Of a stretch of 64,000 nucleotides of DNA, positions 57,063-64,000 are shown one piece after another. Every line of letters begins with the position of its first letter. Within the stretch, counting starts at the first letter, position 1. The position numbers and the translations under genes are program-made. The notes beneath the pieces were generated by a model, which worked only from the letters and a program-made list of their open reading frames with translations, searched no databases and was not told the origin of the DNA. The stretch is from Octopus vulgaris (taxonomy: Eukaryota): contig OX597840.1 of assembly GCA_951406725.2 (NCBI GenBank), positions 36,766,001-36,830,000 of the forward strand, read 5' to 3'.

Positions 57063-57120
<58 letters not shown>

Positions 57121-57122
<2 letters not shown>

Positions 57123-57347
57123 GGAGTAAACACATAAATGTGAAAGGAGGTGAAAAAAAGAGTCCTCAAATACCAGTGGTAGAGTAATATGCTTTATTTA
57201 AAGCAGCAGAAAATTCAACAAAACCTGTTACTCTGAGTTTCCCGTTGCCGTTTATCGGACAATTTTTGCTAGAAAAAACTGTCCGATGAACGGCAACGGG
57301 AAACTCAGAGTAACAGGTTTTGTTGAATTTTCTGCTGCTTTAAATAA
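57121..57347. mobile_element. Foldback element in (TA)n with two divergent hammerhead motifs
   Basis: Arms 57194-57267 and 57274-57347 (2 mismatches) plus left extension starting CCGGAGTAAACAC. Confidence 0.9.
57279..57316 (+). ncRNA. Minimal type I hammerhead, core CCGAUGA
   Basis: CTGT CCGATGA A CG-GCAA-CG G GAAAC TCAGA GTA ACAG. Confidence 0.7.
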
Positions 57348-57497
57348 TATATATATATATTATATATATATCCTACCTTCCTTTTTCTTGGGAACTTAAC
57401 TTCCTTGGCCGTTGTAGAATGTATTTTGGGTATATTAAACTTGGTGGAGTCCATCCTACTGTAGTTCTGAGTATTGGAGATCTCTTTTAGAAAGAGG

Positions 57498-57568
<71 letters not shown>

Positions 57569-59693
57569 GGAATGAAAGTGAGAAGAATGGATTGAACCCC
57601 AGCACTTGTGCATCATCTATCACACTCGAAAGAACGAAGACAAATTGACCTCAGCCAAAACGAATACCACCAACATTTCAATCCGACTCCGCCAATGCCC
57701 CGCCTCACTTATATAAGTATAACGTATTTGTATATATATACGCATGCGTAGACTTTCGATATGTGTTTCTTATACATTTTACACATACTCCATCCACACA
57801 CATACACACACACATTATGTTAAAAATTATTTATATAACTTATATCTACATTGTGTGTGTGTATGATATATATACATGTATACATTGAATGCATACATAC
57901 GCAGACACAGTCACACACATCTAATGTATGTATGTATGAACGTATGTGTATGACCACTGTTTGGGAATTGTACGAAAATTTCTCCGCAATTCGTTTCCGG
58001 AGAGCCTCATTTTGGTTTTCAATAGAAATTTCTAGAAAGCTACTTTAAAATGATTTACATTGTGTATTATTTTATGTTAATCTTCAATATCTGCCTTTTA
58101 CTTTGTAGAAAACTTTCTCTTTGCTCCAGGCGATGCGCTTTCACCCATTGACATTTAACATTACGATTGTATTCACAAACTCGGAATGCAAATGTTAGTG
58201 TTTTATGCGCTCCATCGAAGATTTTAAGCAATTCCTCTTCTAAGGGAATCCTTTTGATTCCTTAGTACGGTGGTGACAACATAAACAATGTCTGAAACGA
58301 TTCCTAAAGTTGAACATTTTGGTATTTGTTGTCTTGCATTCTGCGCTACAGGAAATATATACCATTAACAGAAGCTATATAATGGAAGATTGTTATGAAG
58401 CATGAATAAAATTAGCTGTAATGGGTGGAGGTTTCATATTAAAAAGAAATGAATCCGGTGCGTGTGTTGTGGCTATGTACAGCTGGAACATATTTCGTTC
58501 CCAGTTCTTTATTTTTATCCGTTCTTTCCCTCAGGTTACAAATGAATATCTCATTACGGAAAAATACAATTTCCTCACAAAGTTAAGTAGAGACTCTCAG
58601 AGAAAACTAAACAGCTGTTTCTATAACCCACGTTAAATATCTTCGTTAAACTTTAGTGAGAAACAATTAAGAGAGAGAGTTGATGATGATGCTGCAAAGA
58701 TGGAGTCTACTTAATTTTATCTGACGAAGACAGCATCTCCCATGATTACCCTCTATTAAGTAATGTTTAATGTAATTCAGTTCAATCTTATTTTCTGCCA
58801 TGGTCGGATTGTTTAGTAACTTTCGAATGTTCCAAATATTCAGGTAGGATATATTCCCGTCCTTCAGGTAATGCGTTTTATCAGAGAAAACCCATCAAAC
58901 CCACGTGTCACTTTAGAAGTTTCCCTTCTCTTTTATGTCACAAAATGGTACTTCTAATAACTGTTCGAATTACGCTAAAATTTCGTCAGTCAATTTCTAA
59001 AAAGGTTCACAGGTTTATTTTTCCTCTCAAACATTGAAGCGATATAATACATCACGCTATGTTAAAGATTGACGAATAACCTATCCTGGTTTCGCAAAGT
59101 GCATGTTGCTATTTATATTCTTCTGTCTCAAAATGGTTCTTATTATGTCTTATATACACAAAACCATTCCTTCGAATATCGTCAATAATAAATAGCAGAA
59201 CTTGAGGAAACGACTCACCCCGTAGCTTAAGTTATTTCAGTTTAGATGGAGAAATTCATAGAACTTTCTTAGTTACTTTCAGCATTTCGATCATGCCGTC
59301 GATTTCTTTCCACAGTTAAGGTTGTTTAAAGCGTAAAACTGGATCACACAGACACTGTGACAAGTAGAATACTATCATCGATGATTAGGAAGATTAGCAT
59401 AATCTAGTTTCGAATAATATCCAAGAGGGAATGCTTTACTGCGTCTAAAGATAGACAATCAAGAGAGTGCTAGGCTTTTTGAAAAAAATTATAAGCGTCT
59501 TGAAACAAAGAAAAGAAACGACGCAGCTGATAAAAACAAGATCAATGAAATAAAACAGACGATTTGGAAGGGAACAAAAGAGTGGAAAAGATTTCACCTG
59601 GTTGAAACTTGAAAATTCACACGTCTTGCCGGTTCATGAATATATTGTACAAATCTGTTTGGGGTTATAACGTGTTTACCTTGCCATGAAAAC

Positions 59694-59781
<88 letters not shown>

Positions 59782-61056
59782 GAAAGAGAGAGACTAATCA
59801 AATCAAAATATCATAATAAATCTTCATATCGTCTCATTTTTTTTTTTTTGTAATCTACTGAATTTACCTGAAAACAGTAATGATATAATTTTTAGAAAAT
59901 GAATTAAACAACTCTTCGCTATATTTCTCTGTTTTTCTCTGTTTTTTTTTTTCTATAAAAATATTTATTTCGTGACATTTAAGAATTCATTTTGGGATTT
60001 TTTTTTTCTGTTTGTTTGTAGAATTTCGGGGAATGGAAACTTTTATGTTTTTGCACTTCATGAAACTATTGAGAAATATTTTCTCATATCGCGAAAGTTC
60101 GGTTACAGACAGGGATATGGTTCTGTGAGTGCGGTGTTTATTTGCCGATTATGTGGTTCCTAGTTCGATATCTGTACAAAGCATCATAAGCATCTTTCTA
60201 ACAAAGCCTTAGGTTATCCAATATCCTTAGTTTGGACCAAACAGATGGAAACCGGCTGGAAGCCCACCCCATATATTACACCATATTGACAAAAAAAGGG
60301 CACATAAGCTATCGTAGTCCAAGATAAACAGTGCATGAATAAAAGGCAGGATATCTTCTCTCATTCCATCGTATTCCTCTTGGCATCTCAATCGCCCAAA
60401 ATATTTCCCCTTTAAAATCAATATTCTCAAAATTACAATGTCTCTTCCATTTCCACCTCACTCCCTCTCCCACACAATTTTCTTTTTTCTTTCTTTCCTT
60501 CTTTCTTTCTTCTTTCCTTTCTTTCTCGTACATACAGTTGCTAACTTTATTTCACATCTCACTTCACATTACACTTTCATAACCAACTCTATCCTCTCCC
60601 CTTCACTCCACACATTTTTTACTCTTTAACTCTCCTTCATGCTCTCTCTTCCTCCCTCCTTCCCTCTCACCTTCTCTCTCTCTCTCTCTTTCTCTCTCAA
60701 TATACACATTACCTCCCTTCCTGATTACCTCCTCTTCGTAGTATTTTCCCATCAACCAGTGAAACACTGTTACACTTTTTTTCTTCCTTCTCTCTTCCTT
60801 TCTTCCTTTCTTTCTTTCTTCCTATCCATTCATACATTTCCCGCCTTAGATATCAATAAATAAGTAAAACAAAAATAAAAGAAGATAATTAAATAAGCGA
60901 ATAAAATACATAAATAAAGGAGCCAGGAAACAAAGGTATTTATTACCGAGTGATTTGCTCCTGCAATTTCGTATTGTCAAATGACGCACTGTATACTTAG
61001 CGAAGGATATATATTTTCTGGTGTATAATTATATGGAAACTATCTATCTATTTATG

Positions 61057-61112
<56 letters not shown>

Positions 61113-61179
61113 GCACAGTGCATTTATTTGAATACGAAGCATGGTTTTTCTTTTCAAGAGTCTTTTAAAGTTGTGCATA

Positions 61180-61225
<46 letters not shown>

Positions 61226-61490
61226 TGTCTATATACACCCTCCTCATGTATACATGCATATATCATACATACATACATGCAGACAAATATCCACACATAT
61301 CGCTGAAAGTATATGCACATGCCAATATATATGTATATATACATACATATATACATACATACGTATATACATAGATATATACATACATATATACATACAT
61401 ACACAGATATATACATACATACACAGATATATACATACATACACAGATATATACATACATACATAGATATATACATACATACATAGATAT

Positions 61491-61523
<33 letters not shown>

Positions 61524-61846
61524 TATATATTTATATATATATATATATACACACACATTCACTTCCAGGTAGGCGTCTATCCACGTGTGTGCACCAACAT
61601 ATTCACACATACATTTGTAAGTATGAATGAATGCATGTATGTACGTACGTGAGTATGTCCGTATGAGTGCAGACAAGAAGTAGGGAAGTGAGTACTCCAA
61701 ACCAAAATTAGAGTGTAATGGAAACGGAAAACATCAAGTAGCACTGCTGTGGCTATCTCGGGACAAGAAACTCGGAGTAACAACACACAGACACACACAC
61801 GCTATCACACAAATACACACATATTCACACACATAAACAAGCGTGG

Positions 61847-61886
<40 letters not shown>

Positions 61887-61918
61887 TTTATTTAAAGCAG
61901 CAGAAAATTCAACAAAAC

Positions 61919-61956
61919 CTGTTACTCTGAGTTTCCCGTTGCCGTTCATCGGACAG
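61919..61956 (-). ncRNA. Minimal type I hammerhead, core CCGAUGA
   Basis: Reverse complement of 61973-62010. Confidence 0.7.
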
Positions 61957-61972
61957 TTTTTGCTAGAAAAAA

Positions 61973-62010
61973 CTGTCCGATGAACGGCAACGGGAAACTC
62001 AGAGTAACAG
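61973..62010 (+). ncRNA. Minimal type I hammerhead, core CCGAUGA
   Basis: CTGT CCGATGA A CG-GCAA-CG G GAAAC TCAGA GTA ACAG. Confidence 0.7.
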
Positions 62011-62112
62011 GTTTTGTTGAATTTTCTGCTGCTTTAAATAAAGCATATTACTCTACCACTGATATTTGAGTACTCTTTTTTCCACCTTGTTTCACATTTA
62101 TGTGTTTACTCC

Positions 62113-62153
<41 letters not shown>

Positions 62154-62206: not shown

Positions 62207-62480
62207 TAAAATAATATGTACAATTACTCAATAGTCAAGATAAAACTCTGAGTTTCAGATGCCGAAGTGGAAATCCACAACACCATCTCTTCGGTTATCT
62301 GGCCAAACGCTATGAAAAACCGAAGAAATGGTGTTGTGGATTTCCACTTCGGCATCTGAAACTCAGAGTTTTATCTTGACTATTGCATAATTGTCACATA
62401 TTATTTTACTGATAAATTTCCTCTAGTTACATAATATTGAGGTCTCTTTCTTTCTTTTGTTATCTTACCGTTTTTACCAA
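62207..62480. mobile_element. Different foldback element (about 90-bp arms) in (TA)n with two divergent hammerhead motifs
   Basis: Arms about 62207-62296 and 62318-62408, spacer about 21 nt. Confidence 0.88.
62238..62300 (-). ncRNA. Type I hammerhead, core CCGAAGA, extended helix II
   Basis: Minus strand: AGATAA CCGAAGA GATG..GTGGA-TT-TCCAC..CATC T GAAAC TCAGA GTT TTATCT; helix I 6 bp. Confidence 0.72.
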
Positions 62481-63661: not shown

Positions 63662-64000
63662 CAGAAGGGGCTACACAATCAATTCGATGCAGTCAAAACA
63701 GATGTTGCTTGAAAAATTTGAGGGATTGGCTGAAGTAAGAAACCCTAAAAAATTATAAAATAGACCAAAAGCAGAATATTGGCAGCGTAAGACGAAGCTT
63801 TGGTCAGGAGCTGATGTGTGAATCTCAGGAATGAACAAATGTCTGCGCTGTGCCGCATCTGTTATAGTGTGGACGAAACCATTGTCCATGTCATGAACGA
63901 ATGGCCTAGACTTGTCCAAAATCCACTACAAGTTGTGGCGACACGATCAGGTAGCTAAAGTGCTACATTGGTAACTGCTACAAGTGGGGGCTAGAGAGGG
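63662..64000 (+). mobile_element. R4/Dong-type retrotransposon fragment (CCHC region), runs off window
   Basis: ETIVHVMNEWPRLVQN / HYKLWRHDQVAKVLHW resembles ET..H..S.C..LA...Y..RHD.VA..LHW; preceded by TAA/TGA repeats. Confidence 0.75.

What the first reader, a model, noticed from the sequence alone, without database searches (positions are those of the whole stretch)
57121..62114. Two complementary truncated copies reconstruct a roughly 300-bp fully palindromic element
Both copies have the asymmetric centre TTTTTGCTAGAAAAAA on the same strand, so they are in the same orientation. Yet the 70-bp extension lies on the left in one (CCGGAGTAAACAC...) and on the right, reverse-complemented, in the other (...GTGTTTACTCCGG). 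The parent should be a complete palindrome with CCGG termini inserted in (TA)n. Both copies break at almost the same point in the arm. The shared centre suggests the palindrome is copied as a unit rather than re-formed at each insertion, i.e. a MITE-like foldback built from two ribozyme-bearing pLTRs.
Basis: partly seen in the sequence, partly recalled or inferred. Interest (0 to 1): 0.72.

Follow-up and report, generated by a model that had tools for sequence, protein, structure and literature searches.

The report
Two-start stubs of a Penelope retrotransposon
The two mirror-image pieces are not halves of a lost 300-base element but two of thousands of short, separate insertions of a Penelope-like jumping gene, nearly always one long arm plus one short arm, likely made when both ends of a cut TA repeat copied the element's RNA and the two copies were joined head to head.

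Summary
In detail: both copies (57121-57347, 61886-62114) share the one-mismatch centre on the same strand, and the 71-bp extension lies on opposite sides. The genome holds 1,698 such palindromes with varied centres (34 junction types in 50). 47 of 50 have one arm ending at position 81 and one at 152; none is long+long. Only 6 two-sided copies were found, and the 2 with this centre belong to another subfamily. The arms are the hammerhead-motif pLTR and 'tail' of a Hydra-clade Penelope-like element (3,361-bp unit, 711-aa ORF), whose kb-long insertions show the same long/short architecture. The shared centre is a junction hotspot found in both orientations (39:28). The copy-B type cannot come from fold-back of one cDNA, so the best model (inferred) is two target-primed cDNAs from two fixed start sites, joined end to end. 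The structure type is known; the strict long+short rule and the flip-flop centre are testable mechanistic clues. This scan reported the same kind of element before, in this genome and others.

The parts
57121..57347 (.). Copy A: head-to-head stub insertion, long arm left (152 nt), short arm right (79 nt)
57121..57191 (-). 'Tail' of copy A (element positions 82-152): the stretch between the two fixed outer termini (inferred RT start sites)
   Evidence: tail concept PMC11167929
57220..57267 (-). Hammerhead-type motif of A's long arm; carries a G-to-A change at core G8 and a stem I change, so predicted dead
   Evidence: positions 11 and 20; core numbering recalled, motif layout as in PMC4209133
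57263..57278 (+). Junction of copy A: T5-G-CTAG-A6; the long arm keeps the two native upstream bases
57274..57321 (+). Hammerhead-type motif of A's short arm (stem I, CCGAUGA, GNRA-capped short stem II, GAAA, palindromic stem III, GUA site); activity untested
   Evidence: read by eye; no Rfam hammerhead hit
61886..62114 (.). Copy B: head-to-head stub insertion, short arm left (81 nt), long arm right (152 nt)
61914..61961 (-). Hammerhead-type motif of B's short arm; untested
61957..61972 (+). Junction of copy B: same centre, but here the short arm keeps the native upstream bases
61968..62015 (+). Hammerhead-type motif of B's long arm; untested
62044..62114 (+). 'Tail' of copy B (positions 82-152), ending CCGG before (TA)n
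57069..57120 (.). (TA)n target tract left of A (further tracts at about 57348-57372, 61852-61885, 62115-62151)
62208..62480 (.). Third stub, of a second family with the same stem III word, a different centre and the same short+long architecture

Best explanation
A and B are two independent ~230-bp insertions of the pLTR end of a Hydra-clade Penelope-like retrotransposon, each with one arm ending at position 152 and one at about 81, likely made by two target-primed cDNAs that were joined head to head. Shown: family identity, the fixed termini, the long+short pairing, varied junctions, both orientations of the shared centre, and matching subfamily alleles in the two arms of a copy. Inferred: the GIY-YIG endonuclease nicks both strands of (TA)n. 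One nick primes reverse transcription at 152 and the other at 81, on the same RNA or on RNAs of one source locus. Both cDNAs run towards the RNA 5' end and are joined by their 3' ends, most often by annealing at the self-complementary CTAG. Whichever 3' end is extended (or whichever strand of the mismatched duplex is kept) decides whether the insertion looks like A or like B, and trimming both ends gives the symmetric GCTAGC centre. More weakly inferred: the pile-up of inner ends at -2 to +2 marks a transcription start at -2.
For: (1) Long+short pairing: 47 of 50 in an unselected sample (45 of 48 after removing two duplicated loci) and 67 of 71 among exact-centre copies, with 0 long+long and 0 short+short; independent choice of ends predicts about 50%. 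(2) 26 of 30 long ends chosen only by their terminus have a short partner, and none a long partner (3 of the 26 paired by coordinates read from the flank). (3) 9 of 20 large loci are complete long...junction...short insertions with junctions at unrelated positions; the other 11 have one end unresolved or solo. (4) Orientation of the centre is 39 A-type to 28 B-type (p=0.22 against 1:1), with both types inside the same haplotypes. (5) TCTAGA occurs once genome-wide, against 18 GCTAGC in the first 50 places. (6) Arms of a copy agree at subfamily sites: 63, 57, 51, 60 and 60 of 64 against 36, 38, 20, 43 and 47 expected; only 2 of 41 singleton changes lie in both arms, so later conversion is rare. 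(7) Solo short arms (3) and solo long arms (4) starting at -2 lie directly in (TA)n, so each start site primes on its own. (8) In vitro, an anole PLE cleaves and extends both strands and starts RT at two sites that bound the tail (PMC11167929, parts 1-2 of 4 read). (9) A second family gives long+short in 15 of 15 loci.
Against: No biochemistry or raw-read RNA data for this family. In PMC11167929 the start site did not differ between top and bottom strand, which does not by itself predict a strict long+short rule. 6 long+long copies exist and L018 has an arm running past 152. 17 of 50 junctions carry inserted or unparsed bases, and outside the CTAG hotspot overlaps are only 0-2 nt, so many joints are not annealing-driven. 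Inner ends also extend far upstream of -2, so -2 is no absolute wall. Crossover inversion of the centre after insertion is not strictly excluded.
Confidence: 0.75

Rival explanations
1. One reading: a ~300-bp two-sided palindrome is copied as a unit (MITE-like), and A and B are complementary truncations.
For: Shared centre in 106 copies of this subfamily; two ~300-bp two-sided copies with this centre exist (L022, L023).
Against: Centres vary. 9 pattern hits and 6 true two-sided copies against 1,698 palindromes. The short end is fixed. No long+long in samples of 50 and 71. L022 and L023 are another subfamily. The only repeated odd centres with shared flanks are local duplications.
Confidence: 0.02
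2. Intramolecular self-priming (fold-back), as proposed for PLE junction palindromes in PMC3846280: one strand folds back and is copied, and the short end is cut when the intermediate is resolved.
For: Published interpretation (PMC3846280, section 11 read). It explains identical arms within a copy and the CTAG hotspot.
Against: In B-type copies (28 of 67) the short arm carries the native upstream bases, and a short cDNA cannot template the 71-nt tail of the long arm. Centres with a single-base mismatch or no loop (L053, L063/L073 type) cannot form as a loop. Solo short arms exist. Fold-back on an antisense RNA that spans both termini is not excluded.
Confidence: 0.1
3. Insertions form with one fixed centre orientation, and the centre is later inverted by recombination or template switching between the 80-bp arms.
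For: Spacerless palindromes are recombinogenic (established knowledge, recalled); a crossover in the arms would flip the centre without altering the termini.
Against: Both orientations occur already among the four exact-centre copies 98-99% identical to the reference arm (2:2). TCTAGA, one expected half-converted product, occurs once. 39 of 41 singleton changes stay in one arm. This rival does not explain the long+short rule or the varied junctions.
Confidence: 0.08
4. Short long+short stubs are themselves transcribed and re-copied in trans as SINE-like units, preserving their centre.
For: Non-autonomous PLE derivatives are known (PMC8557442 passages; bioRxiv 10.64898/2026.07.22.740005, part 1 of 5 read); stubs vastly outnumber ORF-linked copies (113 linker matches).
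Against: Most junction types are singletons (28 of 34); the same odd centre occurs on different haplotypes (L048, L056); both orientations occur within haplotypes.
Confidence: 0.05

Closest known systems
Hydra clade of C-terminal EN+ Penelope-like elements (Craig et al. 2021, PMC8557442; e.g. Hydra-1_Obim)
   Same: Single ORF with RWK, DKT, CxCX5C linker, CxxC and CxH, C-terminal GIY-YIG-like motif, no CCHH, hammerhead motif in the pLTR, (TA)n target. By eye the ORF is colinear with the Hydra-1_Obim protein shown in the supplement passage.
   Different: A different family: the four motif words searched were absent from the supplement as held (long files may be cut). The unit is 3,361 bp against '<3 kb' as the general rule, and it has clear tandem pLTRs.
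PLE insertion unit with an inverted 5'-truncated pLTR and an optional tail (PMC3846280; PMC8557442 Fig. 2 legend)
   Same: Head-to-head inverted copy, palindrome at the junction, tail present at only one end.
   Different: The tail is 71 nt rather than 30-40. The pairing is quantified here as near-obligate long+short, and the junction mismatch occurs in both orientations, which the published fold-back reading does not predict.
Poseidon PAc in vitro mechanism (Frangieh et al. 2024, PMC11167929)
   Same: Two RT start sites bounding the tail, both target strands cut and extended, AT-rich target, predicted dimer.
   Different: Other clade; start sites lie inside the ORF there and in the 5' UTR/pLTR here; no strand-specific start site reported; joining of two cDNAs was not described in the parts read.
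L1 twin priming (recalled; no call)
   Same: Both nicks prime cDNA synthesis and give an inverted, head-to-head joint with microhomology.
   Different: In L1 the two cDNAs cover non-overlapping parts of one RNA and the second start is variable; here both starts are fixed and the two cDNAs overlap.
MITEs / foldback DNA elements
   Same: Short, non-coding, high copy, inverted repeats, TA context.
   Different: The two ends are different sequences (no terminal inverted repeats), centres vary, and the parent encodes a PLE-type RT, not a transposase.

Membership tests
Hydra-clade PLE (parent L130) | Single ORF, RT followed by C-terminal GIY-YIG EN | tested here: met
   711-aa ORF with RT-type motifs at 250, 311, 344 and VVY..YTG at 581. 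Motifs read by eye; Pfam and PDB sequence scans gave no hit; 1,074 homologues, one carrying PF01541.
Hydra-clade PLE (parent L130) | RWK motif and DKG changed to DKT | tested here: met
   RWK at 37, DKT at 113 (definition)
Hydra-clade PLE (parent L130) | CxCX5C linker; CxxC and CxH in EN; no CCHH | tested here: met
   562, 667, 695; no HxxH and no CX2-5CxxC
Hydra-clade PLE (parent L130) | Insertion into (TA)n | tested here: met
   4,979 and 4,279 end/TA junctions; flanks
Hydra-clade PLE (parent L130) | Partial tandem forming pLTRs | tested here: met
   3,361-bp unit with the pLTR repeated in L130 and others
Hydra-clade PLE (parent L130) | Placement in the Hydra clade by RT phylogeny | not tested
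   No tree built; by-eye similarity to Hydra-1_Obim only
PLE minimal type I hammerhead (PMC4209133) | Core C(U/C)GANGA...GAAA...UH with stems I and II and palindromic stem III | tested here: met
   Read by eye. Parent has CUGAUGA, A and B have CCGAUGA. Four of the five subfamily sites inside the motif fall at N7, the tetraloop N, the end of stem II and the stem I mismatch; the fifth is U4. Stem II is only 2-3 bp, shorter than the published consensus.
PLE minimal type I hammerhead (PMC4209133) | Match to a curated hammerhead model / stable monomer fold | tested here: not met
   No Rfam hammerhead hit; single arms fold no better than shuffles, z 0.70 and 0.35. Expected for dimer-dependent motifs, but no support.
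PLE minimal type I hammerhead (PMC4209133) | Self-cleavage | not testable with these tools
   No assay; whole copies fold into one long hairpin (-132 and -140 kcal/mol) predicted to mask the motif
MITE / foldback element | Terminal inverted repeats at both ends | tested here: not met
   Ends differ (81 vs 152) in 47 of 50 and 67 of 71 copies
MITE / foldback element | Uniform internal structure copied as a unit | tested here: not met
   34 junction types in 50
MITE / foldback element | Fixed target-site duplication; empty sites | tested here: inconclusive
   A TSD cannot be read inside (TA)n; contigs of other runs break at the repeats

The most novel reading that the evidence does not exclude
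Hydra-clade PLEs integrate by obligate asymmetric twin priming: a dimeric RT-endonuclease uses the two nicks of one cut (TA)n site to start cDNA at two different fixed sites of one RNA (one per strand), copies towards the capped 5' end, and closes the insertion by joining the two cDNA 3' ends. The flip-flop mismatch centre is the genomic record of that end-to-end joint and argues against the published fold-back reading of PLE palindromes.
Probability: 0.55. Interest if true: 0.6.

Novelty: new member of a known kind. Interest (0 to 1): 0.38.

Why it matters
As a locus it is ordinary: two inert retrotransposon stubs. As a data set it bears on a stated open question, how PLEs make their inverted pLTR and one-sided tail structures (PMC8557442 calls for mechanistic work; PMC11167929 leaves the later steps unvalidated). 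The long+short rule and the two orientations of a one-mismatch centre give quantitative predictions for the existing in vitro system. It also warns that such stubs can be mis-annotated as MITEs or miRNA hairpins (copy B reaches the gathering score of a plant miRNA family), and that they add thousands of long hairpins to the genome.

Tried and rejected
One search used a centre pattern with one T too many and found nothing; corrected. One search's junction positions were off by one and were redone; some junctions with indels are still misparsed, so 34 types is approximate. A ~250-bp tandem (retrozyme-like) parent suggested by L017 was rejected: its join is a private deletion, and 30 linker loci lead into the ORF instead. 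Site 16 was dropped from the arm-concordance result because the search pattern fixed it in both arms for many loci. Rfam gave no hammerhead; its miRNA hits reflect the hairpin only. Expression: no RNA holder listed on record; contigs showed no splice joint at the AG before stem I and cannot show RNA ends. Empty sites: contigs of four other runs break at the repeats, so untestable; they do show the short terminus next to TA and many different joints. Cap-templated base at -2 ends (idea from e1-10352193): 8 of 19 true -2 ends are preceded by G, 2 of them not supplied by partner or target; suggestive only, 11 of the 30 loci were a native variant and were set aside. Literature searches for a twin-priming account of PLEs listed none; the library lacks most subscription papers, so this does not show that it is unpublished. 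The PMC13282606 passages do not mention these palindromes. Position 3816 is an 11-base chance match.
Full report
Observation. Copy A spans 57121-57347 and copy B 61886-62114, each between (TA)n tracts. Both read T5-G-CTAG-A6 on the + strand: a CTAG flanked by one G/A mismatch inside otherwise near-perfect arms. Numbering outward from the C of CTAG, A has arms of 152 (left) and 79 (right), and B has 81 (left) and 152 (right). Their unique flanks do not align.

The centre with free mismatch positions occurs 158 times in the subfamily of A and B, 106 times as in A and B. Of the first 50 places, 32 are asymmetric and 18 are the symmetric GCTAGC. A pattern that fixes only the arms finds 1,698 palindromes. 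I fetched the first 50 listed. 5 have the exact centre (one more is mutated), 7 have GCTAGC, and parsing gives about 34 junction types. The centre therefore varies and is a hotspot, not an inherited marker. Two-sided copies: 9 pattern hits, of which 6 are true long+long copies in TA, with five kinds of centre.

The real rule is long+short. 47 of the 50 have one arm ending near 81 and one near 152; 3 are damaged; none is like-with-like. Two pairs are local duplications, leaving 45 of 48. Among the first 71 of the 106 exact-centre copies, 67 are long+short and 4 are other. Exact long-end/TA and short-end/TA junctions number 4,979 and 4,279; independent choice would give about half like-with-like. 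Of 30 long ends chosen by terminus only, 26 have a short partner head to head and 4 are solo or unresolved (my reading). A second family, present in the window at about 62208-62480, has 614 palindromes with varied centres and is long+short in 15 of 15 fetched loci.

Parent element. The sequence beyond position 152 (113 matches) leads into a 711-aa ORF in a 3,361-bp tandem unit. It has RWK, DKT, CxCX5C, CxxC and CxH and lacks CCHH, the features that define the Hydra clade, nearly all of whose families insert into (TA)n (PMC8557442, section 11 read in full, other passages by search). The supplement shows a colinear octopus protein, Hydra-1_Obim, of another family (passages only). The protein search gave 1,074 homologues, almost all unnamed; Pfam and PDB gave none. 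No tree was built. Of 20 large loci, 9 are complete insertions with a long end, a head-to-head junction at unrelated positions and a short end; the other 11 have one end solo, truncated or unresolved. A and B are the smallest form of the same architecture.

Ribozyme. Each arm, read outward, has a hammerhead-type layout with a palindromic stem III, as described for PLE pLTRs (PMC4209133, parts 1-2 of 4 read). This was read by eye: Rfam has no hit and single arms fold no better than shuffles. A's long arm has lost core G8. In a transcript through a whole copy the arms pair into one long hairpin. Activity is untested, and none of the termini or junction hotspots coincides with the predicted cut after position 44.

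Mechanism. An inverted 5'-truncated pLTR with a tail at one end is a known PLE structure (PMC3846280, passages and section 11; PMC8557442). In vitro an anole PLE cuts and extends both target strands and starts RT at two sites that bound the tail (PMC11167929, parts 1-2 of 4). Positions 81 and 152 fit those two sites (inference). In T5-G-CTAG-A6 the left arm keeps two native upstream bases, so its cDNA 3' end was the one extended. That arm is the long one in 39 copies and the short one in 28 (p=0.22 against 1:1), with both types inside the same haplotypes. A short cDNA folding back on itself cannot supply the 71-nt tail, so B needs two cDNAs. Solo short and solo long arms exist (3 and 4 of the 13 loci shown). 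The mirror centre TCTAGA occurs once in the genome, which argues against later repair as the source of symmetric centres. Arms of a copy share subfamily alleles far above chance (63, 57, 51, 60, 60 of 64 against 36, 38, 20, 43, 47), while 39 of 41 singleton changes are in one arm only (64 copies passed the motif classifier). Both arms thus come from one source at insertion. 13 of 33 junctions without inserted bases overlap by 4 nt or more, against 1.9% for random joins, all at the CTAG; 17 of 50 have insertions or were not parsed. Inner ends pile up at -2 to +2 but can run far upstream. A start of transcription at -2 with a cap-templated C is suggested by 8 G among 19 true -2 ends and remains weak.

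Against this reading: no experiment on this family; the published in vitro data show no strand-specific start; rare long+long copies exist; inversion after insertion by crossover is not strictly excluded; empty sites and RNA ends could not be tested.

Prior notes. I wrote down my reading before opening earlier findings. Several unreviewed reports on this and other genomes reach the same model; they are not independent support. One prompted the cap test and two named Hydra-1_Obim. Nothing was noted near this place. Three paper searches listed no twin-priming account of PLEs, within the limits of the library.

Verdict. The lasting value is a clean genomic test between fold-back and two-cDNA joining. 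Interest 0.38.

Noticed in passing
window 62208-62480: A stub of a second hammerhead-motif family 94 bp from copy B; 614 palindromes genome-wide, long+short in 15 of 15 loci, tail again about 70 nt. Its autonomous parent was not sought.
   Followed up: partly
L036:1709-1855: A third related palindrome (73% to the arm) directly beside a family-1 stub; stubs appear to cluster because each leaves (TA)n targets on both sides (also L046/L047).
   Followed up: no
L130:3080-3111: A TATA-like word about 27 nt upstream of position -2 and an initiator-like context at -2 (consensus recalled); candidate pLTR promoter.
   Followed up: partly
L130:3111-3116: An AG directly before stem I of the hammerhead motif, the position where the Drosophila virilis Penelope intron ends (PMC4209133); no spliced joint in four contig sets.
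   Followed up: partly
L130:3102-3110 and 3327-3336; L017: The bases just upstream of the pLTR are complementary to the start-codon region and could close the 5' UTR in a stem; L017 has a deletion joining these two places.
   Followed up: no
L130:3130 (run X9): One contig ends here with what looks like a template-switch adapter (recalled), i.e. a possible cDNA 5' end near position +20; a single contig, no weight.
   Followed up: no
window 63700-64000: Degenerate coding-like fragment with the peptide RHDQVAKVLHW, resembling the C-terminus of R4/Dong-type LINEs (resemblance recalled).
   Followed up: no
L075/L076 and L088: Stubs duplicated with their flanks: an inverted duplication 60 kb apart and a 1.3-kb tandem duplication.
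   Followed up: yes
window 61919-62010: Copy B reaches the Rfam gathering score of the plant miRNA family MIR395 in a small-region scan: a false positive from the hairpin.
   Followed up: yes
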